Sequence record: PP047752
Source: Escherichia phage KEP2
Reading direction: 5' to 3' (one strand)
Length of the DNA stretch: 64,000 nucleotides
The notes under the pieces were generated by a model. It ran no database searches. It was not told where the DNA came from and saw only the letters and a list, made by a program, of their open reading frames with translations. This document shows positions 38,492-56,961 of the stretch, in pieces. Numbering within the stretch: the first letter of the stretch is position 1; every line of letters begins with the position of its first letter. The position numbers were made by a program, and so were the translations under genes.

Positions 38492-38762
38492 AGAGAAGTG
38501 GGAGATTCTACCATTAGTGAGTGAAGGTGGTAACGGCTGTGAGATGTACATGATACGTGGTCATGTCCCAGAACCAATTGCACTTGAGATGGTAAACAAT
38601 TTTACAGATGGCTCTTACAAAGATTTAGGAGAGCCAACTATAAAGCATCAATGGGTCAAACCTGTACCAGACAGCACAGGTAACTGTAGTGTACTTTATC
38701 ACGTTGTAGACCCTGCAAAATGCAAATCTGCAATGGCAGTAACAAACATAACCTTTGATTGA
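38457..38762 (+). CDS. hypothetical protein
   Basis: 101-aa ORF. Confidence 0.3.
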   Translation: MRQFIGQLTMAKEKWEILPLVSEGGNGCEMYMIRGHVPEPIALEMVNNFTDGSYKDLGEPTIKHQWVKPVPDSTGNCSVLYHVVDPAKCKSAMAVTNITFD

Positions 38763-38775
38763 GAGAGAGAAAACT

Positions 38776-39657
38776 ATGAAAACTGTTATTGAAGTCGTTG
38801 TCACCGCACAAGAGAAATTCTTCCACACAGAAAAATTTAATATCATCCAATTCCCATCTGGAGAAATTGGTGGAAACTTCTCTGAAGATTTTGTTAAGTT
38901 TACTGAGCGTAATGCTGGTAAGATTGACAATGTTATACTTACTGTGCAGGGATATGATAAAGATACACTGTTTGCATTAGCTTTGGCTAAGGATGCCATT
39001 GACAGCCTTGTTCCATATAAATCAGCGATGAAAACCGTTGTTTTCGGGTTCTTACCGAATGCTCGATATGACCGCCATATGTTCAAAGGCGATTCAGCAG
39101 CACTAAAAGCTTTTGCCAACCTCGTTAATGCAATGGGCTTTGATGCAGTATGTGCTCTTGACCCTCACAGTAATGTTGCAGAAAACTTATTTAAGTGCTT
39201 CCAAAGCATGAAGCAAAAAGATGTGGCAGTACACTTTGCAAGTGACCCACGCATTGATTTCTTGGTAGCCCCAGATGCAGGTGCAGCTAAGAAGACTGAA
39301 GAGACTGCTAAAGAGGTGGATAAACCATACATCACAATGTCTAAAGTACGTAACCTTAAGACTGGTGAAATTACTGGTATGCGAATCCTTGATGATGTTG
39401 ATTTGACCGATAAAACTGTCATGATTCTCGATGATATCTGTGATGGTGGTCGAACCTTCATAGAAGCAGCTAAACATCTTCGTGAAGCAGGTGCAAAACG
39501 TGTGGAACTCTATGTAACTCATGGCATTTTCTCTAAAGGTGTTGAAAACTTACTTGACAATGGTATTGACCATATCTACACTACAAACTCTTTAGGGGAA
39601 GCTAAAGACCGTGGCTTAACACATTATGCCCAAGTTACTGTAATTACCATTGATTGA
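38776..39657 (+). CDS. ribose-phosphate pyrophosphokinase (Prs) family protein; possibly ADPR-pyrophosphate synthetase
   Basis: Prs motifs: FPSGE, LPNARYDR, PRPP-binding loop MILDDICDGGRT, VTHGIFS; ORF-track start TTG re-called to ATG 38776. Confidence 0.75.
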   Translation: MKTVIEVVVTAQEKFFHTEKFNIIQFPSGEIGGNFSEDFVKFTERNAGKIDNVILTVQGYDKDTLFALALAKDAIDSLVPYKSAMKTVVFGFLPNARYDRHMFKGDSAALKAFANLVNAMGFDAVCALDPHSNVAENLFKCFQSMKQKDVAVHFASDPRIDFLVAPDAGAAKKTEETAKEVDKPYITMSKVRNLKTGEITGMRILDDVDLTDKTVMILDDICDGGRTFIEAAKHLREAGAKRVELYVTHGIFSKGVENLLDNGIDHIYTTNSLGEAKDRGLTHYAQVTVITID

Positions 39658-39666
39658 AACTTTATA

Positions 39667-39688
39667 GGGGGCTTCAAAGCCCCATTTT
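39667..39688 (+). promoter_or_regulatory. GGGGGCTTcaaAGCCCC stem-loop between Prs-like and NadV-like genes
   Basis: Same hairpin family as small-gene cassettes; interrupted T-run (ATTTTG), so attenuator or processing site rather than strong terminator. Confidence 0.35.
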
Positions 39689-39704
39689 GAGAGAGATTAA
39701 AAAG

Positions 39705-41486
39705 ATGACTAAATCACTTTATGCAGTACCAGCAGGTTTAAACGCGGATGCTTACAAATCTGGCCATATTTATCAGTATCCTAGTGCAACAGAGTACCTA
39801 ATGTTCAACCTGACACCACGTAGTGATAAATGGTTTAACAGCCCTTTAGCAATTGACGGTGTAGTTGCTTTTGGTATTCAACGTTTTGTTAAAGATTACC
39901 TGATAGACCACTGGAACGCCACCTTCTTCGAACGTGACAAAAAAGAAGCAATTGATGAAATCTTAGAAGTCATGAACGGCGTTCTGGGTAAAGATGCTAT
40001 TGGTCGAGAACATTGGGAAGCACTCCACGACTTAGGTTATCTACCAGTTGAAGTCTACGCTGTAGAAGAAGGTACAGTTGTCCCTATGCGTGTGCCAATG
40101 ATTGTCTTCCAGAACACTGTTTCAGGTTTCCATTGGGTAGCGGGGTATCTGGAAGATGCTTTCTCTGCTGAGATTTGGAAGGCTTGTACCATTGCAACTA
40201 TTGCATTGCACTACAAACGTATCTGTAAGAAGTGGGCTGACCTTACTTGTGACAACGACTTGCATTTACCTTATCAGTGCCATGACTTTGCTATGCGTGG
40301 TATGTCTGGCTTTACTGATGACGCATTTAACGCTGTAGGTCACTTAACCAGCTTTAAAGGAACTGACAGCTTCCCTGCTGTGTATACAGCTAAACGCATC
40401 TATGGACAGTCCTACCCAATCTCTGATATTGGTAGTTCTGTGCCAGCCACTGAACACTCTGTAATGTGTGCAAACATTGCTTGGGAAGGTGGTAATGAGT
40501 TAATTGAAGATGAAAGACGTTTTAAAGGTGAGTTACAAACCTTCCGTCGTTTCTTAACAGAAACTTACCCAACTGGTATTGCAAGTGTTGTTTCAGACAC
40601 TTATAACTTCTGGAGAACTGTATCAGTCATATTACCAGAACTCCGTAAAGAGATTATGGAACGTAATGGCAAACTAGTAATTCGTCCTGACTCTGGAGAC
40701 CCTGTACATATTGTCACAGGCTATAAAGCAATCCACTTAGAGTGTGCTAAAAAGGCTTATTACGAACACCTAAGCAAGCTGGAAGCCAGCGACACAATGT
40801 TGAATGCTGTTCTGAACATGAAGCTTGAAAACATCAATTATGGTATTGCTGGATGGCTATTGTCAGAAGGCTACGAAATAGTTGTTGACAGAGAAGACTT
40901 TGAAGTTGCTGATACAGTGCTGTTGAAAAATGCTTATATGGTTGGTTCTGCAAACGTTGTAACACGTCCTGTAGCGGAGATTGATGGAGCTATCAAGACA
41001 CTGTATAACATCTTTGGAGGAACTATCAACGCTAAAGGTTTTAAAGTACTGGATGAGCATATCGGACTTATTTATGGTGACTCTATCACGTTGGAACGTG
41101 CAAACGAAATACTGAAGCGTTTGTATGAAATGGGTTTTGCAAGCTCTAACGTAGTGTTTGGTGTAGGTTCTTATACTTACCAGTACATGACTCGTGACAC
41201 CTTTGCATTTGCTGTCAAAGCAACTCTTGCAAGCATTGGTGGTAAAGAGATTATGCTTGCAAAAGACCCTAAAACAGATAGCGGTGTTAAGAAGTCTGCT
41301 TTTGGTGGTGTAGCGCCCATGTGGGATGGTGATAAGCTGAAAGCTGTAGATGGCTATGGATTCCAGAGCTTTGCAGATGTGCTTGAACATCCAGCTTGTG
41401 CTTTACGTTTAGTCTTTAGTGACTCTGAGCAGTTCGGTTACACAACTCTTGGCGATATTCGAAATAATATTGACAAGCAGCTTTAA
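39705..41486 (+). CDS. nadV: nicotinamide phosphoribosyltransferase (NadV/NAMPT) family protein
   Basis: N-terminal ...NADAYKSGH... and overall size/pattern of NAMPT family; ATG with AGAGAGATTAAAAAG leader. Confidence 0.7.
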   Translation: MTKSLYAVPAGLNADAYKSGHIYQYPSATEYLMFNLTPRSDKWFNSPLAIDGVVAFGIQRFVKDYLIDHWNATFFERDKKEAIDEILEVMNGVLGKDAIGREHWEALHDLGYLPVEVYAVEEGTVVPMRVPMIVFQNTVSGFHWVAGYLEDAFSAEIWKACTIATIALHYKRICKKWADLTCDNDLHLPYQCHDFAMRGMSGFTDDAFNAVGHLTSFKGTDSFPAVYTAKRIYGQSYPISDIGSSVPATEHSVMCANIAWEGGNELIEDERRFKGELQTFRRFLTETYPTGIASVVSDTYNFWRTVSVILPELRKEIMERNGKLVIRPDSGDPVHIVTGYKAIHLECAKKAYYEHLSKLEASDTMLNAVLNMKLENINYGIAGWLLSEGYEIVVDREDFEVADTVLLKNAYMVGSANVVTRPVAEIDGAIKTLYNIFGGTINAKGFKVLDEHIGLIYGDSITLERANEILKRLYEMGFASSNVVFGVGSYTYQYMTRDTFAFAVKATLASIGGKEIMLAKDPKTDSGVKKSAFGGVAPMWDGDKLKAVDGYGFQSFADVLEHPACALRLVFSDSEQFGYTTLGDIRNNIDKQL

Positions 41487-45717: not shown

Positions 45718-46266
45718 ATGAAGAAGTTGATTCTAGGTTTGTGCTTAATGTTTACAGCACACTTATCTTATGCAGTTGACTGCCCAGAGCTATCAATTAG
45801 CCAAAAAGTAAACATGCTAAAAGCTTACCAGTATGGTGAGAATAATATGGGTAAAGGTTGGGGTATCACTCTAGCTGCTATAGCCTTACAAGAGTCAGAG
45901 TTAGGTCTGAAGGTAGAGAATAAAAAGACCCATGACTATGGTATTTTCCAGAATCACTTGAAGACTGTTGTAAAGCGTAACAAAATCAGTCCTAATGTGG
46001 CTAAAAAGAAACTCTTAAAAGATTTTGACTATGCTGCAAAGGAAACACACAAAGAGCTTGAGTTTTGGGCGAAGGTACATGGTCAACCAAAGTCAAAGAA
46101 GACTTTACAAAAAGTTTTAGCATCATATAATGCTGGGTATTCGTACAAAATACCTAAAGCTAAGAAATACTCTCAAGATGTCTATAACAATATGAAAGTT
46201 ATTGCTCAATGTGAATTTGCAACAAACATTTCTAAGGTAAATCATGAAAAAATTAAGAAAGTCTGA
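45718..46266 (+). CDS. secreted protein, possible lytic transglycosylase-like
   Basis: Signal peptide MKKLILGLCLMFTAHLSYA; ALQESELG ... DYGIFQ resembles SLT catalytic ES...GLMQ pattern; weak. Confidence 0.35.
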   Translation: MKKLILGLCLMFTAHLSYAVDCPELSISQKVNMLKAYQYGENNMGKGWGITLAAIALQESELGLKVENKKTHDYGIFQNHLKTVVKRNKISPNVAKKKLLKDFDYAAKETHKELEFWAKVHGQPKSKKTLQKVLASYNAGYSYKIPKAKKYSQDVYNNMKVIAQCEFATNISKVNHEKIKKV

Positions 46267-46939
46267 TGAAGTACTGTGTCATGCTTACGACTTGCATCCT
46301 CATGAGTTAGGTCTTGATTCCTGTGTATGGACTCCAGAACAGTGCAGGGATTTTGAAGATACTGCAAGAGAAGTTGTATGTTCACTTGAAGAGTTCCACA
46401 CATCAGAACCAATTGTGAACGTTGTGGACAAAGAGACTGTACAATCTATAGGTGTAAGACGTGACAGCTTAGTCATAGTCAATAAAGACCTTGTAGAAAA
46501 AGGTAACCTTATCTTAGCAGACATTGATGGTGTTCTTACAAATTTTAATCACGAAGATTACTCCACAGAGTTGACTGATGGGTCATTTTCGCAGTACACT
46601 AATCTTCTTGACTCTGTAAGAGCAAAACCAACGTATGTTTTTAGTATTATTGATGCAATTGCTAATCATGCTGCCATTGGACTCTTGACAGCAAGAGGTG
46701 AATCTCAGAGAATACCTACTGAGATGTTTTTAAGGCATAACATAGAGCATGACTACATGCTTTTTATGCGTGGTTTTGGAACTAACTCTATAAGTGCAGA
46801 AAGTTTGAAAGTCAGGATGATTCAGTCTTGCATTCTGCCTTACTTTAATATAGTATGTTTTATAGAAGATACAGAGAAGAATGTTCAGAAGGTAAACCGA
46901 ATCCTTCCACACATTAAAACCATGTTAGTTAAACATTGA
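46244..46939 (+). CDS. hypothetical protein, possible HAD-like hydrolase
   Basis: ILADIDGVL resembles HAD motif I (DxDGxL) but lies ~90 aa from N-terminus. Confidence 0.3.
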   Translation: MKKLRKSDEVLCHAYDLHPHELGLDSCVWTPEQCRDFEDTAREVVCSLEEFHTSEPIVNVVDKETVQSIGVRRDSLVIVNKDLVEKGNLILADIDGVLTNFNHEDYSTELTDGSFSQYTNLLDSVRAKPTYVFSIIDAIANHAAIGLLTARGESQRIPTEMFLRHNIEHDYMLFMRGFGTNSISAESLKVRMIQSCILPYFNIVCFIEDTEKNVQKVNRILPHIKTMLVKH

Positions 46940-49491: not shown

Positions 49492-49692
49492 ATGGCTGAC
49501 TTCTGCAAAGATTGTGCTATCGAAATGTTCGGACGTGATACAGGAGACTTAAAAGGTCTCATCACTGAAGATGACTTTAAAGCTGGCTATGCAATGCCAG
49601 TAATCTGTGAAGGTTGTGGATGTATCTGGGTAGACCACGAAGGACAACGTGTAAAACCTTCAGAAGATAAAGAATCTTGGGAGAGATGCTAA
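49492..49692 (+). CDS. small cysteine-rich protein
   Basis: CKDC...CEGCGC. Confidence 0.3.
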   Translation: MADFCKDCAIEMFGRDTGDLKGLITEDDFKAGYAMPVICEGCGCIWVDHEGQRVKPSEDKESWERC

Positions 49693-50478
49693 ATGGGTAT
49701 TGTAAAAATCATCAATGGGGATATCTTCTCCGCATTTGATAAAGGTAAGTTTGATATCATTGGTCACGGTTGCAACTGTATGAACTTAATGGGTGCAGGT
49801 ATCGCTGATAAGATTTCTAAACTTTACCCAAAAGCATATGAGACCGATACAGAAGTTTATCTGTATGCAGGTGGTATAGGCCACAAACCCTGTGAAAATT
49901 TACTAGGCAATTTCTCTGTAGCACGTTTAGAACAAGGCCGTATAGCTAACCTTTACACTCAGCTTAAGACTGGTAAAGATGCCCGATATAGTGCTTTAGA
50001 GTCATCTTTGAAACAGCTTAACAGATACTGTGAAGTCAATCAGTTGAAGAAAGTTGGGTTACCTATGATTGGTGCAGGTATCGGTGGACTAGACTCTCAA
50101 GCCGTCACAGTCATCATTAATCAGGTGATGAAGAGTGTAGATGTGTATCTGTATGTCTATGAAGGAGAGATGTACCACAAGTTACGCTCAGGTTGGAAGA
50201 ACTACTGTGAACCAGAATACTTTGCAGGTGTAGTAGTATTCACTAATGATGCAGTTACCCTCTTCAGACGAAGAAAAGGCAAGATACATCAAAGTAACCC
50301 TCCGGTTGAAAAGATGTCTCTAAGTAACGCTCTAGTTACCCACCTGTCGAAGAGCAATCACAGAATTGCAGTAACATTTGGCAGTGATGCAGATACATAT
50401 ATCTATGCAAGAACTGATGAGGATGTTGAGGAAATTTTCTCTTCACCGGAAGTAACCTTCTTAGACGCAAAGAACTAA
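49693..50478 (+). CDS. macro-domain-like protein (ADP-ribose binding/processing)
   Basis: NGDIF...DIIGHGCNCMNLMGAGIADKI ... VGLPMIGAGIGGLD parallels macro-domain GDIT...IVNAAN..GGGV ... FP.IS.G.YG pattern. Confidence 0.5.
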   Translation: MGIVKIINGDIFSAFDKGKFDIIGHGCNCMNLMGAGIADKISKLYPKAYETDTEVYLYAGGIGHKPCENLLGNFSVARLEQGRIANLYTQLKTGKDARYSALESSLKQLNRYCEVNQLKKVGLPMIGAGIGGLDSQAVTVIINQVMKSVDVYLYVYEGEMYHKLRSGWKNYCEPEYFAGVVVFTNDAVTLFRRRKGKIHQSNPPVEKMSLSNALVTHLSKSNHRIAVTFGSDADTYIYARTDEDVEEIFSSPEVTFLDAKN

Positions 50479-50551
50479 GAAACTCTGTAGAATATTCACA
50501 ATAGGTTAAGCCTTTCTTATCTGGTAAATTTTTCAGGTAAGGAGGGCTTTT

Positions 50552-50745
50552 TCATTTCAGGATTGTGCAGGTAGAGTTCTGGACAGAAATCTGTAGAGAA
50601 AATTTTGAACTCCAAAGAGAAAATTCATTTTCAAACTGTGCAGGTAATCTCCAAAGAGCTTTTTCATTTTCAAAACGTGCAGACCCCGCTCAGGTCGGGC
50701 AAGAAAAATCATTTTAGAATTGTGCAGGTAGGTGGGTGCAGGTGG
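50552..50745. repeat. four iteron-like repeats CATTT(T)CAnrAnTGTGCAGGTA
   Basis: Copies at ~50552, 50626, 50664 (degenerate) and 50710, plus GGTGGGTGCAGGTGGGG tail; non-coding. Confidence 0.5.
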
Positions 50746-50986: not shown

Positions 50987-51193
50987 ATGATTTACAGCCG
51001 TGAATTGATGGTTACAACCAACGTTAATACAAAGGTAAAACGTTTTTACATGCAAGTGTGCGGCGCATGGCGTAGAATATCAGAAGCTGATTATTGCAAC
51101 TATGTAGAAACGGCAATCAATTCTAATTGCTACCTTACGAAGAATACAAAGCGACATATAAAACAGACAGCGGTTTACTATTACGATATATAA
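50987..51193 (+). CDS. small early-type protein (array gene 1)
   Basis: 68 aa; leader AAATTGGAGATTTAAAAAATG similar to cassette leader. Confidence 0.4.
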   Translation: MIYSRELMVTTNVNTKVKRFYMQVCGAWRRISEADYCNYVETAINSNCYLTKNTKRHIKQTAVYYYDI

Positions 51194-51200
51194 AAAGTAC

Positions 51201-51283
51201 TTTACAGGGGGCTTAAAAGCTGGTATCTTAAGCCCCAGATAAAGAGCTTTACTAAATTAACCCTTAAACTAGGAGATTCAAAA
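51201..51283 (+). promoter_or_regulatory. canonical promoter/stem-loop/leader cassette (copy a)
   Basis: TTTACA-17nt-TATCTT with spacer and -10 inside GGGGCTTAA...TTAAGCCCC hairpin, then AGATAAAGAGCTTTAC...CCTTAAACTAGGAGATTCAAAAATG. Confidence 0.55.
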
Positions 51284-51664
51284 ATGGCTTATCGTGCACC
51301 TAAATTCATCAACAAAGACAACTTTCGCAACGCACTGGAGAAGTCACTTGATGAAAATTTTAAAGGTAACATTATCGTTGTTCACGCATTCAATTTTAAG
51401 TATGATGTAAACGGGAATAGAATCAACCATTACACAGCAACCATGTTAGATGGTACGCTATCAAGTGAAAAAGCTGTACTGAATGCACTTGCAGGACGTG
51501 GTAAAAACCTGATAAGATGCGATAAGAGACGTTATCAGGGTGGCGCATATGGTTATGATGATGCTGTTTATCATCTTGAAAATATGGGCTATTCAGTGGA
51601 AAAAGCTGGAGCGTCTCAAATAATCGGCAGTGACGGCTATGTGACAATTTTCAAAATTAACTAA
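51284..51664 (+). CDS. small early-type protein (array gene 2)
   Basis: 126 aa, cassette-driven. Confidence 0.45.
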   Translation: MAYRAPKFINKDNFRNALEKSLDENFKGNIIVVHAFNFKYDVNGNRINHYTATMLDGTLSSEKAVLNALAGRGKNLIRCDKRRYQGGAYGYDDAVYHLENMGYSVEKAGASQIIGSDGYVTIFKIN

Positions 51665-51672
51665 TAAAGTAC

Positions 51673-51752
51673 TTTACAGGGGGCTTATAGTTCGATAAAG
51701 TAAGCCCCAGATAAAGAGCTTTACCACTAAATCCTAAATTGGAGATTCAAAA
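51673..51752 (+). promoter_or_regulatory. canonical cassette (copy b)
   Basis: TTTACA-GGGGGCTTATagttcgaTAAAGTAAGCCCC-AGATAAAGAGCTTTACC...AAATTGGAGATTCAAAAATG. Confidence 0.55.
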
Positions 51753-52043
51753 ATGGCTATTATTAAAAACGTTGTAATTCCTGCAAAAACTCGTGATGAC
51801 GCTCGCATCATGGCGAAAAAGTTAGGCGGGAAAGTGGTTGACAACGGAAAACAAACTGCTGTAAGGTGGAACGTGAAGGCGGATAAACAAATGAATTTAA
51901 AAAATTCACCAATAAACTTTTTTACATGTGTAAACACTATCGGGAAAACGAATGTATACACTAAAAAGGCATATATCAGACGCATCGCCATGACGTCACC
52001 TATTCGCACAATGAGAAGTCATGCAAAGATGAAAATTAAGTAA
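51753..52043 (+). CDS. small early-type protein (array gene 3)
   Basis: 96 aa, basic. Confidence 0.45.
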   Translation: MAIIKNVVIPAKTRDDARIMAKKLGGKVVDNGKQTAVRWNVKADKQMNLKNSPINFFTCVNTIGKTNVYTKKAYIRRIAMTSPIRTMRSHAKMKIK

Positions 52044-52051
52044 TAGAGTAC

Positions 52052-52133
52052 TTTACAGGGGGCTTAAAAGCTGATATCTTAAGCCCCAGATAAAGAGCTT
52101 TACCACTCAATCCTTAAACTAGGAGATTCAAAA
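52052..52133 (+). promoter_or_regulatory. canonical cassette (copy c)
   Basis: Near-identical to copy a (TTTACA...TATCTTAAGCCCC...CTAGGAGATTCAAAAATG). Confidence 0.55.
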
Positions 52134-52646
52134 ATGAAAACTGTAGACGCTACCTTTGAAGTTGTAAAAGAAAAATTTTCCATCATTTACGAAGCTGTCA
52201 ATTGCTACGAAGCAAGCCATAATCTTGATAATTGGAAGTTTACAGATGACCATCAAGGCGGTGTGACTATTAAAAACCCCAACTGTCAGCGTAATGGATT
52301 TAAATATGCAATTCCTTTACATTACAGCCTTAAACAGCTTTCAATTGACTATGCAAAACAAGGCCGGGAAAATCCATCGAAAGAGGCTTACATCAGCTTA
52401 CAGAAAGAACTAGAAAGAGATTTAGAGGCTTCAGAATATAACATCGCCGCGAAAGTTGTAGATGCAAACGGTAGCACGGTTTTAGAGAGTTTTTATATTG
52501 GTTATGCTTTCGATTGGTGCTACAGTGACGGCGATGATTTAGATGACAGACTAAAAGAGGAAGTGAACAACGCAGACGCAGAATCTGAAGTATTAGAACG
52601 CTTGGAAGCATTAAAAGATTCAGTGATGAATATCTTTAAGAACTAA
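52134..52646 (+). CDS. small early-type protein (array gene 4)
   Basis: 170 aa, acidic C-terminus. Confidence 0.45.
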   Translation: MKTVDATFEVVKEKFSIIYEAVNCYEASHNLDNWKFTDDHQGGVTIKNPNCQRNGFKYAIPLHYSLKQLSIDYAKQGRENPSKEAYISLQKELERDLEASEYNIAAKVVDANGSTVLESFYIGYAFDWCYSDGDDLDDRLKEEVNNADAESEVLERLEALKDSVMNIFKN

Positions 52647-52655
52647 ATAGACCTC

Positions 52656-52737
52656 TTTACACGGGGCTAACAAGCTGATATGATAGCCCCAGATAAAGAG
52701 ATTTATCAAATTAACCCTTAAACTAGGAGATTCTAAA
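52656..52737 (+). promoter_or_regulatory. canonical cassette (copy d)
   Basis: TTTACA-cGGGGCTaacaagctgaTATGATAGCCCC; -10 TATGAT; leader ...CTAGGAGATTCTAAAATG. Confidence 0.55.
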
Positions 52738-53034
52738 ATGAAATTATCAAATAAAGTTAGGGAAAACCTTAGCAAATTACTCAATAAAATTGATTTTATC
52801 GAGACATCAAGAAATAGTCATGATGTTATGGAATGGTTACACGGCAAAATAAAAGGCCGTCGTGTAGTGATTTGCTTATGGAACAGTTGCAGGGAGTATA
52901 AAAAACCTGTATTGCAAGTTAATATATACGATAATACTTTTAAAAGTCCTGTTAAATCTAAAAGTGATTTATTAGAATCTTATGAGATAACTGTAAATGG
53001 CAAGGTATCACGTAAAGAGGTAACACCATGTTAA
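52738..53034 (+). CDS. small early-type protein (array gene 5)
   Basis: 98 aa. Confidence 0.4.
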   Translation: MKLSNKVRENLSKLLNKIDFIETSRNSHDVMEWLHGKIKGRRVVICLWNSCREYKKPVLQVNIYDNTFKSPVKSKSDLLESYEITVNGKVSRKEVTPC

Positions 53035-53360
53035 TGATGGGTATCACTGCAATCATTGCCATTATAGCACTTTATAAGGCTTACAGCGCATATAATTTGG
53101 CAAGTAAGGCAATCACGCAGCAGGTCAATAATAACCTTGTAATGAGCTTTCTGGAGCGTTTAAGCGATGAACAAATAAAACGGTTAGAAATGAGCTTCAG
53201 ATTTCAATCAAAAACTTATCAAATCAGCGACATTTTCAAAGATGATTTTCAGCTTGTCGATGATTATAACTCTCTGATAAATGCTTTAAATATCAGTGAT
53301 TTAAAAGATTATCATGCTGTAATAGTTCAAGAATTGAGCAAACGAAAAAATTCCTCTTGA
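53028..53360 (+). CDS. small membrane protein (array gene 6)
   Basis: N-terminal TM helix MGITAIIAIIALY; ATG overlaps upstream stop. Confidence 0.4.
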   Translation: MLMMGITAIIAIIALYKAYSAYNLASKAITQQVNNNLVMSFLERLSDEQIKRLEMSFRFQSKTYQISDIFKDDFQLVDDYNSLINALNISDLKDYHAVIVQELSKRKNSS

Positions 53361-53370
53361 TTTTGGTTTT

Positions 53371-53448
53371 TAAAACAAGTAAATTACTAATCAACGGGAG
53401 GTAATAACCTCCCCACTAAGTAAAGTCCTTAAACTAGGAGATTCAAAA
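53371..53448 (+). promoter_or_regulatory. variant cassette (copy e)
   Basis: AAAACAAGTAAATTACTAATCAACGGGAGGtaataaCCTCCCCACTAAGTAAAGTCCTTAAACTAGGAGATTCAAAAATG; different hairpin, same 3' leader. Confidence 0.45.
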
Positions 53449-53721
53449 ATGTATACTACTAACAACGGTCGCACTTTGAACGTAACCCTGCGCCACTATG
53501 TGAACGGTGTAATGCACTTCGAGGATTTACAAGCCGAACAACATATCTTGGATTGGCAAGTAGCAGGACTCCAAAAAACTGCTACAGGATACGGGAAAAA
53601 GATTCCAACTAGTTGGAAAGTATACTACGAAGGGCGTTTGCGCAGAATTTATCAAGATGTATACAGTAATAGCGCATCAAGTTACATCATAGTAAAAGGT
53701 AAAAAGCTGCATTTAGTATAA
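53449..53721 (+). CDS. small early-type protein (array gene 7)
   Basis: 90 aa. Confidence 0.4.
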   Translation: MYTTNNGRTLNVTLRHYVNGVMHFEDLQAEQHILDWQVAGLQKTATGYGKKIPTSWKVYYEGRLRRIYQDVYSNSASSYIIVKGKKLHLV

Positions 53722-53726
53722 AGTAC

Positions 53727-53806
53727 TTTACAAGGGGCTTATAGTTCGATAAAGTAAGCCCCAGATAAAGAGCTTTATCACTCAATCCTAAATTGGAGAT
53801 TCTAAA
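53727..53806 (+). promoter_or_regulatory. canonical cassette (copy f)
   Basis: TTTACAaGGGGCTTATagttcgaTAAAGTAAGCCCC-AGATAAAGAGCTTTATC...GGAGATTCTAAAATG. Confidence 0.55.
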
Positions 53807-54211
53807 ATGGCTATTAATAACCGTGAGTTATCAATCTTAAAAGCACGTTTGACCGTTAACCGGATTAATGTTATTACATCATCAGCACCGGATGAGACAT
53901 TGCACAACATTATCGGGAAGATTCAAAGTGTTATCTTAGACGTTGAAAACGTAAAAAACTCATTGGCTGACGTTGCAGCAGGTATCACGCTAGACGGCGC
54001 ACAATATGAAATGGCTGACATGTTAGGCAAATCTAAGGTAATGAATAAAGAGCTTGATTTAAAAATGTTTCGTTTTGCTGTTAAAGTGTGGCTATCTGTC
54101 GAGTATGACGCAAATTTTGCAATCGCTGACTTTTTCGCAACATGGTTGCAACGTAATTTAACAAATCATGATTTTCGTGATATCTGCGATATAATTTACG
54201 CAGAACTCTAA
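53807..54211 (+). CDS. small early-type protein (array gene 8)
   Basis: 134 aa. Confidence 0.4.
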   Translation: MAINNRELSILKARLTVNRINVITSSAPDETLHNIIGKIQSVILDVENVKNSLADVAAGITLDGAQYEMADMLGKSKVMNKELDLKMFRFAVKVWLSVEYDANFAIADFFATWLQRNLTNHDFRDICDIIYAEL

Positions 54212-54218
54212 AAAACTG

Positions 54219-54312
54219 TTGACACGGATTTTTAGATAGATTAAATTACGCATTAACGGGGAGGGAATGAACTTCCCCACTAAATAAAGTCCTTAAACTA
54301 GGAGATTCTAGA
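54219..54312 (+). promoter_or_regulatory. variant cassette (copy g) with explicit TTGACA-17-TAAATT promoter
   Basis: TTGACA 54219-54224, TAAATT 54242-54247, then GGGGAGGGaatgaaCTTCCCC hairpin and CCTTAAACTAGGAGATTCTAGAATG leader. Confidence 0.5.
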
Positions 54313-54510
54313 ATGGCTATCATTAACGGCTTAAACATTGAAACTACTCACATCAAAGATATCAAAGTTGGCGATATAGTCCTTTTTCACGGCGTAGAAA
54401 AAACTGTTACTGCAAAGGATATTAAAGAGGATTCTTTCATGGGTAGGACTCTCTTCGGTGATTCTTATTGCTTAGGTTATCTTGCAGTTTTAAAAGTTGT
54501 CAAACATTAA
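54313..54510 (+). CDS. small early-type protein (array gene 9)
   Basis: 65 aa. Confidence 0.4.
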   Translation: MAIINGLNIETTHIKDIKVGDIVLFHGVEKTVTAKDIKEDSFMGRTLFGDSYCLGYLAVLKVVKH

Positions 54511-54523
54511 CTAATAAAGTACT

Positions 54524-54603
54524 TTACAAGGGGCTTATAGTTCGATAAAGTAAGCCCCAGATAAAGAGCTTTACCACTAAATCCTAAACTGGAGATTCAA
54601 AAA
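54524..54603 (+). promoter_or_regulatory. canonical cassette (copy h)
   Basis: Same as copy f/b family. Confidence 0.55.
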
Positions 54604-55167
54604 ATGAAATGCTATCACGGTACTACCCTCAAAAACTTTGTAAACCTGCTGAATGGTGGCGACAAGCCGGAAGGTATCTGGAACTGCTCCTACATGGACG
54701 ATTGTTTCTATGTTTACCCAATGAATAAGATTATCAAAACGGAATGTCTGGAAGATGAGGAAGATTCTTACATCCGTGAACGCTGCATTCAAAACGCTTT
54801 AGAATCGGGGCTTATCACGGCAGCTTTCCAAATGGAAACGCAGGAAATAATTGTCATTGAAATGGATATCCCAGAGGAAGAACTTGAGGACGATTATTCT
54901 TGCGACAACATGAGCGATATCGCCAGCTTTACCGGACACTTTGATAAGGATTGGATTATCGGCCTTCACTCGACGAAATTTAGTGCGATGTATGCGCCTT
55001 TCTTTGTACCGGATGCAACTAATCGCAATTTAGGCTATGTTGACGATGATTTGTTAACTATGGCGAAAATTGTACAGAATAGCGGTGATTCTTCTGTGTA
55101 TTGTGACCTACTGGATAAAATCACGGCAAACATCACAGAGCGCAATTTAAAAGACTTTTTAGGTTAA
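54604..55167 (+). CDS. acidic early-type protein (array gene 10)
   Basis: 187 aa, strongly D/E-rich. Confidence 0.45.
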   Translation: MKCYHGTTLKNFVNLLNGGDKPEGIWNCSYMDDCFYVYPMNKIIKTECLEDEEDSYIRERCIQNALESGLITAAFQMETQEIIVIEMDIPEEELEDDYSCDNMSDIASFTGHFDKDWIIGLHSTKFSAMYAPFFVPDATNRNLGYVDDDLLTMAKIVQNSGDSSVYCDLLDKITANITERNLKDFLG

Positions 55168-55194
55168 TCAGTACAAAGACACCAACTTCCAACT

Positions 55195-55230
55195 TAAGGC
55201 CCGTACAGGGCCATTTAGAGGGCTTCAATC
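55195..55230 (+). promoter_or_regulatory. divergent cassette (copy i): GGCCCgtacaGGGCC hairpin + TAGAGGG SD
   Basis: No canonical leader; hairpin directly upstream of gene. Confidence 0.3.
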
Positions 55231-55464
55231 ATGCTTACAACCATTTACCTCATCCTTTCCATTTGTAATGGTCATTCATGCGATTTTAAAGGGCTTGAGG
55301 AGTTTACAGGGAGTAAAGAAAATGTTATTCATGCCTGTCAGATAGCAAGGCAAGACTATCCCGCCAGTGATGATATACAATGTTACTTTAAGACAGAAGA
55401 TGAAGACGGCGTCTATTTTGACAGTGTCGATGGTCAATATGAAATTATCATTGAAAAAGACTAG
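55231..55464 (+). CDS. small early-type protein (array gene 11)
   Basis: 77 aa. Confidence 0.4.
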   Translation: MLTTIYLILSICNGHSCDFKGLEEFTGSKENVIHACQIARQDYPASDDIQCYFKTEDEDGVYFDSVDGQYEIIIEKD

Positions 55465-55477
55465 ACAAGCCTGATAA

Positions 55478-55551
55478 AAGTCTGTAAATTGTCAATCAAC
55501 GGGAGGGATGACCTCCTACTAAACAAAATCCTTAAACTAGGAGATTCGAAA
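55478..55551 (+). promoter_or_regulatory. variant cassette (copy j)
   Basis: CTGTAAATTGTCAATCAACGGGAGGGatgaCCTCCtACTAAACAAAATCCTTAAACTAGGAGATTCGAAA. Confidence 0.45.
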
Positions 55552-55893
55552 ATGGCTTATGTAACCGTAATTACCAATAAAGAAGATTCATCTTGGTCAA
55601 CTCAAGTAAGTGACAAGATGTCACCTATGCAGTGCCTAAAATACTTTGAGCAATGGAACAAAGGTGAGGAAACAAGCCCCTTTCAAGTAATGCAGATTAT
55701 CCATACAGACAACGAAGGGAATAAAACTGTTTTGAATAGTGAGTACTATGCAACCAGATTCGAAACGAGAAGTAAAGCAATGAAGCTCTTACGTGAATCC
55801 GGTTATTCTCATATTGCCGCGCTAATCTGGGATGACCTCCTAAAAAGTCAGCGTATCAGTTATGTAAAACCTGAAAAAATATTCATCAGTTAA
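55552..55893 (+). CDS. small early-type protein (array gene 12)
   Basis: ATG directly after cassette leader; ORF-track upstream extension (55489) runs through the cassette and is rejected. Confidence 0.45.
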   Translation: MAYVTVITNKEDSSWSTQVSDKMSPMQCLKYFEQWNKGEETSPFQVMQIIHTDNEGNKTVLNSEYYATRFETRSKAMKLLRESGYSHIAALIWDDLLKSQRISYVKPEKIFIS

Positions 55894-55931
55894 TCAACAA
55901 CTTACAAAAAACTTTTAAAAAAGTGTTGACA

Positions 55932-56113
55932 ATGCCCCTTGACATTGGTAACTTTGTTCGAGGGGGTTTATCTAAAAGGGATTAACTTAAAAGATTCTTT
56001 ATAGATAAACTTAAAAAATTGCTTGCAATCAGATATCAAAACAAGTAAATTACTAATCAACGGGAGGGATAACCTCCCCACTAAGTAAAGTCCTTAAACT
56101 AGGAGATTCAAAA
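55932..56113 (+). promoter_or_regulatory. extended variant cassette (copy k) with tandem TTGACA boxes
   Basis: GTTGACAATGCCCCTTGACA (same arrangement as 20012-20031) then AAAACAAGTAAATTACTAATCAACGGGAGGGataaCCTCCCC...CTAGGAGATTCAAAAATG. Confidence 0.45.
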
Positions 56114-56644
56114 ATGAACAAATTTCAAGCTATCAATTACATCCGCTCAAATAGTGTTATGTCAAAGCCTGTTAAAGACACCTATGAATTTCGTTGCAAT
56201 GGTGTACACTTTGCAACCATCACCAAATCAGAAAACGGGGCTTATTACGTTCATCGCCGTAATGTTGCAACCGTTGTAGTCTCTCACTTTATGCAAGCTG
56301 TCGCGGAACTTCTCCCGATGTTTTTAGGGCTTTACTTAGATGAGTGTAAGCACATTCATAACCATGTTAAAAGCCTTTTAAACGGTTATAAAATGGCTTA
56401 TGAGCGTTCTATCAAGTCCTTAAACAAGTTTTACAACGCACCTGAAAACACCGTATCAATGGCATACGCTGTAAAGGGTGAGGCGGTGAGTCTCTTCGAA
56501 GTGGAAGAAATCGAGCTTTATGACCATCGCCCCAATGGTTACGCTAAAACTCTCGGTGAAGGTTTAACGTTCAATATCAAGAACTTAGAAAAAACTTTAA
56601 AAGATATTGAAAAAGATATTGACGAGACAATCAAAAGTCTGTAA
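56114..56644 (+). CDS. early-type protein (array gene 13)
   Basis: 176 aa. Confidence 0.45.
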   Translation: MNKFQAINYIRSNSVMSKPVKDTYEFRCNGVHFATITKSENGAYYVHRRNVATVVVSHFMQAVAELLPMFLGLYLDECKHIHNHVKSLLNGYKMAYERSIKSLNKFYNAPENTVSMAYAVKGEAVSLFEVEEIELYDHRPNGYAKTLGEGLTFNIKNLEKTLKDIEKDIDETIKSL

Positions 56645-56649
56645 ATTGT

Positions 56650-56712
56650 CAATCAACGGGGAGGGAATGACCTTCCCCACTAAATAAAGTCCTTAAACTA
56701 GGAGATTCTAAA
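56650..56712 (+). promoter_or_regulatory. variant cassette (copy l)
   Basis: TTGTCAATCAACGGGGAGGGaatgaCCTTCCCCACTAAATAAAGTCCTTAAACTAGGAGATTCTAAAATG. Confidence 0.45.
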
Positions 56713-56961
56713 ATGGCAACTATCCGCGCAATTGTAAATTCTTATGGCTGCTACACTCTGGACGTTAAATTTGATATAGGTGGGACCGATGAGTGTTTCG
56801 AACTGGTGAAAACAGTCATTAAACAAGTTATCCCAGACTATAACCCTACTGATGACTTCTGGAAAGATGCAGTAAAAGAGGCGTTGAACGATGAATATCA
56901 TTACCATTATTGGGGTGATTTGATTGTCTCCCTGTACTACAATAAACAAGGTTGCAACTAA
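56713..56961 (+). CDS. small early-type protein (array gene 14)
   Basis: 82 aa. Confidence 0.4.
   Translation: MATIRAIVNSYGCYTLDVKFDIGGTDECFELVKTVIKQVIPDYNPTDDFWKDAVKEALNDEYHYHYWGDLIVSLYYNKQGCN

What the first reader, a model, noticed from the sequence alone, without database searches (positions are those of the whole stretch)
49693..50478. Phage-encoded macro-domain-like protein, possible ADP-ribose counter-defence partner
The 261-aa product has a macro-domain-like signature (GDIF, HGCNC...MGAGIA, LPMIGAGIGG). Macro domains bind or hydrolyse ADP-ribose and its conjugates. In a phage that also carries a putative NAD+-rebuilding pair 8 kb upstream, it could reverse host ADP-ribosylation of DNA or protein, or supply or degrade ADPR-derived molecules.
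Basis: partly seen in the sequence, partly recalled or inferred. Interest (0 to 1): 0.6.

Follow-up and report, generated by a model that had tools for sequence, protein, structure and literature searches.

The report
Felix O1-type phage macro-domain counter-defence enzyme
This gene of a Felix O1-like phage encodes a real macro-domain (ADP-ribose-processing) enzyme from a phage family whose members were recently shown to defeat bacterial ADP-ribose/NAD+ based immunity; what is new is an unexplained extra C-terminal domain.

Summary
Window 49693-50478 (+) is a 261-aa ORF with the quoted motifs. Residues 1-157 are a macro domain: Pfam scores above its cut-off, the AlphaFold model has pLDDT 88, and the closest solved folds are TARG1, Poa1p and DarG. 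The window is a Felixounavirus, and the protein is 97% identical to Bas63 gp95 ("putative phosphatase"). The "NAD+ pair" 8 kb upstream is NARP1, which was discovered in Bas63. The macro domain belongs to one phage family (phrog_335). That family holds T4 Tk.4/AdfM, needed against DarTG2, and Adpp, an ADPR-1''-phosphate phosphatase that feeds NARP1 against aRES. Both residues whose mutation inactivates Adpp (H24, N27) are conserved here (H25, N28). The DarG/TARG1 catalytic Lys is Gln. A loop-length character splits the family. All 17 NARP1-adjacent Adpp sequences have a long loop. The query has the short, Tk.4-type loop. I therefore favour an AdfM-like role, removal of DarT2-type ADP-ribose from phage DNA (about 0.4), over an Adpp role in trans (about 0.25). 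Residues 158-261 form an orphan domain under purifying selection, with no fold or sequence relatives outside this lineage. Function is untested. This is a known family with a new two-domain variant and is of moderate interest.

The parts
49693..50478 (+). Complete ORF, 261 aa plus stop. It is the ortholog of Bas63 bas63_0095 ('putative phosphatase').
   Evidence: ORF list and translation. It is 97% identical to Bas63 gp95. About 207 phage records match by megablast, including the type phage Felix O1 at 94% nt identity.
49693..50163 (+). Macro domain (residues 1-157). Key residues are Gly9-Asp10, His25 (nt 49765-49767), Asn28 (49774-49776), loop M33-G-A-G-I-A38, N86-L-Y-T-Q90 (Gln90 = nt 49960-49962) and P124-M-I-G-A-G-I-G-G-L-D134.
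   Evidence: Pfam PF01661. AlphaFold model with pLDDT 88 and pTM 0.87. Foldseek finds TARG1, Poa1p and DarG at probability 1.0 with target TM 0.74-0.85. Invariant columns are listed. H25 and N28 align with Adpp H24 and N27. dN/dS is 0.00-0.13.
50164..50475 (+). C-terminal orphan domain (residues 158-261): a linker helix, six beta-strands and one helix.
50508..50549 (+). Terminator-like hairpin (17-bp stem followed by a T-run), starting 30 nt after the stop codon. It would close the transcription unit.
   Evidence: Consensus scan. The total number of terminator-like sites in the region is no higher than in shuffled sequence, so this feature is suggestive only.
49492..49692 (+). 66-aa Cys-rich (CxxC...CxxC) ORF whose stop codon abuts the macro start codon (phrog_2210, function unknown).
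   Evidence: The adjacency is conserved in Felixounavirus and Suspvirus-like loci but not in more distant two-domain lineages, so it is probably not an obligate partner.
38755..41486 (+). Context: the NARP1 operon (Adps, Prs-like, 38755-39657; Namat, Nampt-like, 39654-41486). It lies on the same strand and ends 8.2 kb upstream of the macro gene.
   Evidence: Pfam. It is orthologous to Bas63 genes 79-80, in which NARP1 was discovered (annotation). The Namat...rIIA-rIIB...PNK...macro synteny is conserved in two-domain lineages.

Best explanation
The gene encodes a non-essential accessory enzyme with two domains. The N-terminal domain is a catalytically intact macro domain of the phage 'Poa1p-like' family. 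It binds ADP-ribose and hydrolyses whatever is attached to the ribose 1'' carbon, using the His25/Asn28 site rather than the Lys used by DarG and TARG1. I commit to this as the most likely role: it works like T4 Tk.4 (AdfM). Early in infection it strips the ADP-ribose that a host DarT2-type toxin puts on thymidines of single-stranded phage DNA, so replication can proceed. The C-terminal domain is specific to this lineage. It is inferred to be a targeting or binding module for a substrate or a host protein. Shown here: the fold, family membership, conservation of the catalytic residues, the Tk.4-type subtype, purifying selection on both domains, and dispensability in laboratory hosts. Inferred: the substrate, the defence system countered, and any role of the C-terminal domain. 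The general statement (an ADP-ribose-1''-conjugate hydrolase serving counter-defence) I hold at about 0.8. The specific DarT2/AdfM-like role I hold at about 0.4.
For: Macro fold and family. Homology to Tk.4/AdfM is 34% identity over the whole domain (E=2e-23), and Tk.4 is the best-scoring characterised relative (80.5 bits). A T4 tk.4 knockout becomes sensitive to DarTG2. The macro family splits by the loop after the conserved N-L-Y-[TG]-Q strand. All 17 NARP1-adjacent Adpp sequences have an 11-16 residue loop. The query, all its two-domain relatives and the T4-like proteins have the 8-residue loop. None of 64 distinct short-loop sequences is NARP1-adjacent (Fisher p about 3e-8, not corrected for phylogeny). 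The only hits in PADLOC and NCBIfam are the DarG models, over the macro domain (E=4e-13 and 9e-13). The catalytic Asn is conserved: PhiKZ AdfM N23, DarG N22, query N28. Bas63 gene 95 is dispensable on lab hosts and on the defence-panel strains shown, with fitness +0.6 to +1.1, as expected of a conditional anti-defence gene. A localized allele replacement of this gene between otherwise 87-94% identical genomes fits arms-race turnover.
Against: No experiment exists for this protein or for any Felix O1-like phage against DarTG2. The Tk.4 evidence is genetic only; enzymatic removal of ADP-ribose from DNA by Tk.4 has not been shown. The biochemically proven DNA de-ADP-ribosylases (DarG, PhiKZ AdfM) use a Lys that is Gln90 here. 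The score margin over Adpp is small: 80.5 bits against 76.6 for Pakpunavirus Adpp. The tree does not resolve subfamilies (bootstrap 31-48%). The protein departs from Tk.4 in having an extra domain and in lacking the family-wide Trp after the diphosphate loop. The C-terminal domain is not basic (net charge -5 to +4), so it gives no hint of DNA binding. The same genome carries NARP1, which offers an obvious alternative use.
Confidence: 0.4

Rival explanations
1. Adpp in trans (a split NARP1-AP pathway). The macro domain dephosphorylates ADPR-1''-phosphate, the product of RES-domain NAD+ phosphorolysis by the aRES defence. This yields ADPR, which the phage's own NARP1 (Adps and Namat, 8 kb upstream) rebuilds into NAD+.
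For: The protein is in the same family as the biochemically validated Adpp of Vibrio phage Gary (27% identity, E=9e-13) and Pakpunavirus Adpp (30%, 76.6 bits). Both Adpp residues whose mutation abolishes anti-aRES activity (H24A, N27A) are conserved as H25 and N28. The genome carries the founding NARP1, on the same strand. The Namat...macro synteny holds in the two-domain lineages sampled, down to 39% identity. Counts of phage records with Namat (245) and with the two-domain macro gene (257) are nearly equal. The tested aRES genes come from E. coli, Klebsiella and Enterobacter, which overlaps this phage group's E. coli hosts. Osterman's screen looked only within two genes of NARP1, so it could not have seen this gene. 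Two-domain proteins carry G-[KR] in the short loop, as in Gary's P-G-R-N.
Against: The gene is 15 genes and 8.2 kb from NARP1, in another transcription unit. It lacks the long loop present in all 17 NARP1-adjacent Adpp sequences, and no short-loop protein is NARP1-adjacent. The synteny comes from one lineage, so it counts as one evolutionary observation. T4, whose Tk.4 is at least as similar, has no NARP1 genes within 10 kb in the T4-like loci sampled, and to my own knowledge none anywhere in its genome.
Confidence: 0.25
2. The enzyme acts on a different ADP-ribose conjugate. Candidates are ADP-ribosylated RNA (CmdT-type), ADP-ribosylated protein, O-acetyl-ADP-ribose from sirtuin-type defences, or an ADPR-derived immune signal. 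It might instead be broadly promiscuous and cover several of these.
For: Macro domains are versatile on 1''- and 2''-linked ADPR adducts, and phage versions have been predicted to target small ADPR derivatives (PMC9503650). The closest solved relative, TARG1, is a protein and nucleic-acid ADP-ribosyl hydrolase and OAADPr deacetylase. The family already has two different reported substrates. The clade-specific loss of a conserved Trp together with a new domain could mean a changed specificity.
Against: No member of this family has been shown to act on these substrates. No phage ADP-ribosyltransferase or sirtuin is annotated in Bas63. PhageMaP found no phenotype for gene 95 on the SIR2-HerA strain or on the other Gao et al. 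panel strains shown.
Confidence: 0.15
3. Housekeeping for RNA repair, the original role of Poa1p. The enzyme would clear ADPR-1''-phosphate made when a Tpt1/KptA-type enzyme removes 2'-phosphates during repair of cleaved tRNAs. It would work with the nearby polynucleotide kinase.
For: A PNK-like gene lies 2.8 kb upstream (46244-46939; phrog_3970). PhageMaP reported 'slight structural homology' of Bas63 gp107 to the NAD-binding domain of RNA 2'-phosphotransferase. Poa1p is among the closest solved folds.
Against: The window's gp107 ortholog (54604-55167) has no Pfam or PDB sequence match to Tpt1/KptA. No RNA ligase or 2H phosphoesterase is annotated in Bas63.
Confidence: 0.05
4. A non-catalytic ADP-ribose binder. 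The macro domain would act as a reader or sponge for ADPR-containing molecules, and the C-terminal domain would be the effector.
For: The Lys/Asp catalytic dyad of TARG1 is absent. Some macro domains are binders only. The unexplained second domain is under selection.
Against: His25 and Asn28, which are required for Adpp function, are invariant across the family. The macro domain is under very strong purifying selection (omega 0.00-0.13). Related single-domain proteins are enzymes.
Confidence: 0.05

Closest known systems
T4 Tk.4 = AdfM (anti-DarT factor Macrodomain), HIDEN-SEQ preprint 10.1101/2025.11.20.689424
   Same: Same phage macro family (phrog_335). It is 34% identical over the whole macro domain (E=2e-23). 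It shares H-G-C-N-C, M-x-A-G-[IV]-A, N-L-Y-T-Q and P-x-I-G-A-G-I-G, and has the same short 8-residue loop after the Gln.
   Different: Tk.4 is a single 155-aa domain, whereas the query has an extra 104-aa C-terminal domain. Tk.4 keeps the family Trp (G-K-G-N-W) where the query has G-G-L-D-S. Tk.4 has G-P in the loop where the query has G-K. T4-like loci show no NARP1 genes nearby.
Adpp, the ADPR-1''-phosphate phosphatase of NARP1-AP (Vibrio phage Gary KNV71_gp137), preprint 10.64898/2026.01.28.702374
   Same: Same family. It is 27% identical to Gary Adpp and 30% identical to Pakpunavirus Adpp. The validated catalytic His and Asn are conserved, as are the Gln and the P-x-I-G-x-G loop. Both occur in genomes that encode NARP1.
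   Different: Adpp sits inside or next to the Adps-Namat operon, whereas the query is 15 genes away. Adpp has a long loop of 11-16 residues and usually H-Q-[AC]-N-C and Y-G-Q motifs. It is a single domain and keeps the Trp.
DarG2 antitoxin macrodomain and PhiKZ gp104 AdfM (PMC13309987; PDB 5M31, 5M3E, 5M3I)
   Same: Same structural class: Foldseek probability 1.0 and DarG is the only NCBIfam and PADLOC hit. The catalytic Asn is conserved. Bacterial DarG2 is likewise a two-domain protein, a macro domain plus a C-terminal binding domain.
   Different: The catalytic Lys (DarG K80, PhiKZ K78) is Gln90 here. Identity to PhiKZ AdfM is only 25% (E=0.002). The NCBIfam score is 48 bits against a cut-off of 250. 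The C-terminal domain matches neither the C-terminal part of the DarG sequence profiles nor any solved fold.
Human TARG1/OARD1 (PDB 4J5Q, 4J5R, 4J5S) and yeast Poa1p (PDB 6LFQ)
   Same: These are the closest solved folds (E=6e-10 and 4e-9; target TM 0.82 and 0.75). The H-x-C-N-C motif aligns with Poa1p H23/N26, and the His aligns with TARG1 H32.
   Different: TARG1 K84 and D125 align with Gln90 and Gly131. Poa1p S30 aligns with Leu32. Both are cellular single-domain proteins.

Membership tests
Macro domain superfamily (Pfam PF01661) | Profile HMM score above the curated gathering threshold | tested here: met
   31.4 bits against a cut-off of 22, E=2e-7, residues 25-141 covering profile positions 2-117 of 118.
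Macro domain superfamily (Pfam PF01661) | Three-layer alpha/beta/alpha macro fold | tested here: met
   AlphaFold2 model with pLDDT 88.3 and pTM 0.87. Foldseek against the PDB gives 240 hits at E<=0.001. The top hits are TARG1, Poa1p and DarG, with target TM 0.74-0.85.
Macro domain superfamily (Pfam PF01661) | Binds or hydrolyses ADP-ribose derivatives | not testable with these tools
   This needs purified protein. Only conservation of the ligand-loop residues could be shown.
Phage Poa1p-like macro family (phrog_335; holds Tk.4/AdfM and Adpp) | Profile match and the shared motif set G-D, H-x-C-N-C, M-G-x-G-I-A, N-[LV]-Y-[TG]-Q, P-x-I-G-x-G | tested here: met
   phrog_335 at E=1.7e-112. All motifs are present and invariant in the 28-sequence alignment.
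AdfM of the T4 Tk.4 type (anti-DarTG2) | Significant full-domain homology to Tk.4 and the short-loop subtype | tested here: met
   34% identity, E=2e-23. The post-Gln loop is 8 residues, as in Tk.4 and T4-like proteins.
AdfM of the T4 Tk.4 type (anti-DarTG2) | Single-domain architecture of about 150 aa with the conserved G-[DN]-W after the diphosphate loop | tested here: not met
   The protein is 261 aa with a second domain. The Trp is absent in 25 of 27 two-domain proteins and present in 54 of 58 single-domain ones.
AdfM of the T4 Tk.4 type (anti-DarTG2) | Protects the phage from DarTG2 | not testable with these tools
   No published test exists for Felix O1-like phages. The PhageMaP panel lacked DarTG.
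DarG2 / PhiKZ AdfM / TARG1 type (Lys-dependent ADP-ribosyl hydrolases) | Catalytic Lys (DarG K80, PhiKZ K78, TARG1 K84) | tested here: not met
   The profile alignment puts TARG1 K84 opposite the invariant Gln90 and D125 opposite Gly131. MAFFT places PhiKZ K78 within one residue of Gln90. Active-site residues are taken from PMC13309987.
DarG2 / PhiKZ AdfM / TARG1 type (Lys-dependent ADP-ribosyl hydrolases) | NCBIfam antitoxin_DarG equivalog threshold, including the C-terminal DarT-binding domain | tested here: not met
   48.2 bits against a cut-off of 250. Only profile positions 4-153 of 338 are matched. The PADLOC DarG model is matched at positions 17-146 of 329.
Adpp / NARP1-AP | Poa1p-like macro domain with the catalytic His and Asn (Gary H24, N27) | tested here: met
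   H25 and N28 align with H24 and N27. The mutants are listed in the preprint's supplementary file 4.
Adpp / NARP1-AP | Encoded within two genes of Adps/Namat (the operational definition used by Osterman et al.) | tested here: not met
   The gene is 8.2 kb from Namat in the window and 15 genes from it in Bas63. No Felix O1-like or Salmonella phage appears in their Table S1.
Adpp / NARP1-AP | NARP1 (Adps and Namat) present in the same genome | tested here: met
   Window 38755-41486. It is orthologous to Bas63 genes 79-80.
Adpp / NARP1-AP | Long (11-16 residue) loop after N-x-Y-x-Q, seen in all NARP1-adjacent members I could examine. This is an empirical signature, not a published criterion. | tested here: not met
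   17 of 17 adjacent members have the long loop, and the query has the short one.
Adpp / NARP1-AP | ADPR-1''-phosphate phosphatase activity and rescue from aRES | not testable with these tools
   This requires biochemistry or plaque assays.

The most novel reading that the evidence does not exclude
The fast-evolving orphan C-terminal domain is a protein-binding module that grips a host immune protein, such as a DarT2-type toxin or a RES-type NADase. That would make gp95-type proteins two-pronged 'orphan antitoxins': they would undo the damage enzymatically and also block the enzyme that causes it. The architecture would parallel bacterial DarG2 (macro domain plus DarT-binding domain), but with an unrelated, newly invented fold. 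The clade-specific loss of the family Trp would then reflect a remodelled substrate cleft that works together with the new domain.
Probability: 0.2. Interest if true: 0.65.

Novelty: new variant of a known kind. Interest (0 to 1): 0.42.

Why it matters
Felix O1-like phages are used in diagnostics, biocontrol and therapy, and Bas63 is the phage in which NAD+ reconstitution (NARP1) was discovered. If gp95 is an AdfM-type enzyme, this phage group carries a ready-made counter to DarTG2. If it is an Adpp working in trans, NARP1-AP is more widespread than the published 15% of NARP1 phages, because operon-proximity screens miss distal partners. Either way the gene helps predict host range against ADP-ribose and NAD+ based immunity. 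The short-loop versus long-loop split offers a simple sequence marker that may separate two functions within one large phage macro family (about 2,800 phage records). The orphan C-terminal domain is a well-defined target that may be accessible to experiment. The experiments use existing reagents: Bas63 knockouts and DarTG2 and aRES strains.

Tried and rejected

3. The long PQQ/BamB beta-propeller proteins hit by the C-terminal profile (E=1e-7 to 1e-4) score by summing 3-8 weak blade matches. I rejected them as homologs.

4. The C-terminal domain shows no similarity to aRad1, the aRES inhibitor.

5. The C-terminal extension of the Erwinia-like 260-aa proteins (L030/L031) is not homologous to the query's (hhalign probability 0.1%).

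6. An NJ phylogeny meant to place the query with Adpp or with Tk.4 left the deep nodes unresolved (bootstrap 31-48%), and Adpp is polyphyletic.

7. I looked for a Tpt1/KptA or RNA-repair context and found no sequence support.

8. The upstream 66-aa Cys-rich ORF is not conserved beyond close relatives, so I rejected it as an obligate partner.

9. I tried to read Poa1p's loop type from a PDB sequence search, but the Poa1p alignment was not printed.

10. PhageMaP fitness data for Bas63 gene 95 show no phenotype on the hosts tested, and the panel lacks DarTG and aRES, so the data do not discriminate.

11. The aRES preprint gives its phage panel only in figures, so I could not learn whether any Felix O1-like phage was challenged.

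12. Rfam and tRNA scans of the region found nothing.
Full report
**Observation.** The opposite strand is closed by stops. The quoted motifs (GDIF, HGCNC...MGAGIA, LPMIGAGIGG) are all present. Pfam's Macro model (PF01661) scores 31.4 bits against a gathering threshold of 22. The whole protein matches phrog_335 ('phosphatase') at E=1.7e-112. Sequence searches of the PDB find TARG1/OARD1, DarG, Poa1p and coronavirus Mac1. With a family profile the TARG1 hit reaches E=3.6e-17.

**Origin of the window.** The window comes from a Felixounavirus. The region is 90-96% identical in nucleotides to about 200 Salmonella, Escherichia and Shigella phages. The gene itself occurs in 207 records by megablast, including the type phage Felix O1 at 94%. 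Those records call it 'putative phosphatase', 'macro domain protein', 'O-acetyl-ADP-ribose deacetylase', 'hypothetical' or 'unknown'. The protein is 97% identical to Bas63 (JohannRWettstein) bas63_0095. The gene is therefore neither new nor unannotated.

**Structure.** An AlphaFold2 model built on 28 homologs is confident (mean pLDDT 88.3, pTM 0.87). Residues 1-157 form a macro fold. The best solved matches are TARG1 (E=6e-10, target TM 0.82-0.85), Poa1p (4e-9, 0.75) and the DarG macrodomains of Thermus aquaticus and Mycobacterium tuberculosis (8e-9 to 1.5e-8). Residues 158-261 form a second domain: a linker helix, six beta-strands and a helix.

**The C-terminal domain is an orphan.**
- No Pfam family matches it; the PH domain scores only E=0.19.
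- In the viral structure library it matches only its own ortholog in phage SUSP2.
- A profile search of 1.84 billion representative proteins finds it essentially only fused to this macro domain.
- That search also returns weak multi-blade matches to PQQ beta-propellers, which I do not accept as homology.
- The domain is real and selected. Against 15 close orthologs dN/dS is 0.12-0.43, compared with 0.00-0.13 for the macro domain.
- It is not basic; net charge across the family is -5 to +4.
- It does not resemble the aRES inhibitor aRad1.
- It has no match to the C-terminal part of the DarG profiles.

**Context.** The 'NAD+-rebuilding pair' is real and already characterised. ORFs 38755-39657 (Prs-like) and 39654-41486 (Nampt-like) are the orthologs of Bas63 genes 79-80. 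Those are the genes in which NARP1 (Adps and Namat, rebuilding NAD+ from ADPR and nicotinamide) was discovered (preprint 10.1101/2024.02.11.579819; annotation).

The macro gene lies 8.2 kb downstream on the same strand, 15 genes away in Bas63. It follows rIIA, rIIB, an SLT-like gene, a PNK-like gene and the spanins. A terminator-like hairpin at 50508-50549 follows its stop codon. A 66-aa Cys-rich ORF abuts its start codon but is conserved only among close relatives. No RNA ligase, ADP-ribosyltransferase or sirtuin is annotated in Bas63. The window's ortholog of Bas63 gp107, said in PhageMaP to resemble Tpt1 slightly, shows no Tpt1/KptA sequence signal.

**What homologs are known to do.** Three recent studies bear on this.
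1. T4 Tk.4 was named AdfM. A clean knockout makes T4 sensitive to DarTG2, and enzymatic removal of ADP-ribose from DNA was inferred but not shown (preprint 10.1101/2025.11.20.689424).
2. PhiKZ gp104, also named AdfM, removes DarT2-placed ADP-ribose from DNA in vitro, and an N23A mutation reduces its activity (PMC13309987). Its active site is given as N23/K78, matching DarG N22/K80.
3. Osterman et al. showed that the aRES defence cleaves NAD+ to nicotinamide and ADPR-1''-phosphate, which NARP1 cannot use. [quoted passage not shown] The pathway is called NARP1-AP (preprint 10.64898/2026.01.28.702374). The H24A and N27A mutants are listed in their supplement. I found the same Adps-macro-Namat arrangement independently in Vibrio phage K412.

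**Where the query sits.** The query's macro domain, Tk.4 and the Adpp proteins are one family with one motif set: G-D, H-x-C-N-C, M-G-x-G-I-A, N-[LV]-Y-[TG]-Q and P-x-I-G-x-G.

| Comparison with the query macro domain (residues 1-160) | Identity | Score |
|---|---|---|
| T4-like Tk.4 (RB51) | 33.8% | 80.5 bits |
| Pakpunavirus Adpp (JG004) | 30.3% | 76.6 bits |
| Vibrio phage Gary Adpp | 27.4% | 53.5 bits |
| PhiKZ AdfM | 24.7% | 27 bits, E=0.002 |

His25 and Asn28 align with the validated Adpp residues H24 and N27, and Asn28 aligns with PhiKZ N23. The catalytic Lys of TARG1, DarG and PhiKZ AdfM is replaced by the family-invariant Gln90, and TARG1 Asp125 by Gly131. This family therefore does not use the TARG1/DarG mechanism. 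It is a DarG-class fold without being a DarG equivalog (NCBIfam 48 bits against a cut-off of 250).

A neighbour-joining tree recovers the Felix O1-type two-domain clade with 98% support. It leaves the deeper nodes unresolved, and Adpp proteins are scattered among the others.

**Separating the two candidate roles.** In 79 IMG/VR loci with up to 10 kb of flank on each side, most two-domain loci with a full upstream flank have NARP1 7.5-8.3 kb upstream, including the 64% and 41% identity alleles. Loci cut short on the upstream side are uninformative. One locus with a full flank (L016) shows no NARP1 within 10 kb. The most distant two-domain lineage (39% identity) has a Namat-like gene 9.3 kb upstream. 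This is one lineage with conserved gene order, so it counts as one observation.

Of 56 single-domain relatives, only 5 have NARP1 genes within 10 kb, and 3 of those are directly adjacent.

A discrete character separates the subtypes. All 17 distinct NARP1-adjacent Adpp sequences have an 11-16 residue loop after the conserved Gln. The query, all two-domain relatives and the T4-like proteins have an 8-residue loop. None of 64 distinct short-loop sequences is NARP1-adjacent. The script gave Fisher p=2.6e-8 while mis-scoring one Adpp (RYC) as short, and the value is not corrected for phylogeny. By this marker the query is Tk.4-like.

Against a clean assignment to Tk.4, the two-domain clade has lost the Trp that follows the diphosphate loop in 54 of 58 single-domain proteins. 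It also carries G-[KR] where Tk.4 has G-P, and Gary Adpp has P-G-R-N at that point.

**Other evidence.** PhageMaP's supplementary tables give Bas63 gene 95 positive fitness (+0.6 to +1.1) on laboratory E. coli and on the defence-panel sheets that were visible. The gene is therefore dispensable there. That panel contains neither DarTG nor aRES.

One IMG/VR genome (L029) is 87-94% identical to the window on both sides. It has no nucleotide similarity from about codon 48 of the macro gene to about 190 bp past its stop, and it encodes a 41%-identical allele. This is a localized replacement of the kind seen at loci under arms-race selection. Erwinia-like relatives encode a 260-aa macro protein whose C-terminal extension is not homologous to the query's.

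**Conclusion.** This is a bona fide macro-domain enzyme of a phage family whose members act in counter-defence against ADP-ribose and NAD+ based immunity. I hold that general statement at about 0.8.

| Specific role | Confidence |
|---|---|
| AdfM-like reversal of DarT2-type DNA ADP-ribosylation | about 0.4 |
| Adpp working in trans for the phage's own NARP1 | about 0.25 |
| Other ADP-ribose conjugates, or broad promiscuity | about 0.15 |
| RNA-repair housekeeping | about 0.05 |
| Non-catalytic binding | about 0.05 |

The first two roles are not mutually exclusive. Nothing has been tested for this protein. The part not described in the literature I searched is the orphan, faster-evolving C-terminal domain together with the remodelled loop. 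On that basis I rate the finding a new variant of a known kind, of moderate interest.

Noticed in passing
window 51190-56720: Nearly every small + strand ORF here is preceded by a repeated intergenic cassette. It consists of a G+C-rich hairpin ('TTTACAGGGGGCTTA...TAAGCCCC', 6 copies, or 'GGGGAGGGAAT...CTTCCCC', 4 copies) followed by a near-identical 'CCTTAAACTAGGAGATTCAAAAATG' ribosome-binding site and start codon (8 copies). It looks like a reiterated promoter/terminator-plus-RBS module for a bank of small early genes. The macro gene has no such cassette.
   Followed up: partly
L029 9800-10934 (IMG/VR UViG_2974574300), matching window 49835-50664: A sharply localized allele replacement. The flanks are 87-94% identical in nucleotides (Namat is 96% identical in protein). 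From about codon 48 of the macro gene to about 190 bp past its stop there is no nucleotide similarity, and the encoded protein is only 41% identical.
   Followed up: yes
window 49492-49692: A 66-aa Cys-rich ORF (CxxC...CxxC, phrog_2210, function unknown) whose stop abuts the macro start codon. A more distant lineage (L005) has an unrelated 63-aa CxxC...CxxC ORF at the same position.
   Followed up: partly
L030 8483-9265 and L031 9998-10780 (Erwinia-phage-like, 84.6-kb contigs): These loci encode 260-aa macro proteins that group with the Felix O1-type clade (98% bootstrap). Their roughly 100-aa C-terminal extension is not detectably homologous to the query's C-terminal domain (hhalign probability 0.1%).
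   Followed up: partly
whole phage macro family (loci L007-L085; Table S1 of 10.64898/2026.01.28.702374): The family splits into a short-loop subtype (8 residues after N-L-Y-T-Q; T4 Tk.4-like; never NARP1-adjacent in 64 distinct sequences) and a long-loop subtype (11-16 residues; includes all 17 NARP1-adjacent Adpp sequences). This may be a sequence marker for two functions.
   Followed up: yes
L006 4169-7122 (Vibrio phage K412, OZ196335): An Adps-macro-Namat three-gene arrangement in which the macro start overlaps the Adps end. It is annotated only as Prs / phosphatase / Nampt and matches the NARP1-AP operon type.
   Followed up: partly
L002 150-641 (Salmonella phage HMD-P8, PQ568382): An HNH homing endonuclease gene is inserted between Adps and Namat and splits the NARP1 operon.
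   Followed up: no
L001 (PV390658, Escherichia phage vB_EcoM_P54): This 88-kb Felix O1-like genome (its macro protein is 99.6% identical to the query) carries a Straboviridae/Tequatrovirus taxonomy line in GenBank. That appears to be a misclassification.
   Followed up: no
window 54604-55167: This is the ortholog of Bas63 gp107, which PhageMaP described as slightly similar to RNA 2'-phosphotransferase. It has no Pfam or PDB sequence match; the only hit is phrog_3303, of unknown function.
   Followed up: partly
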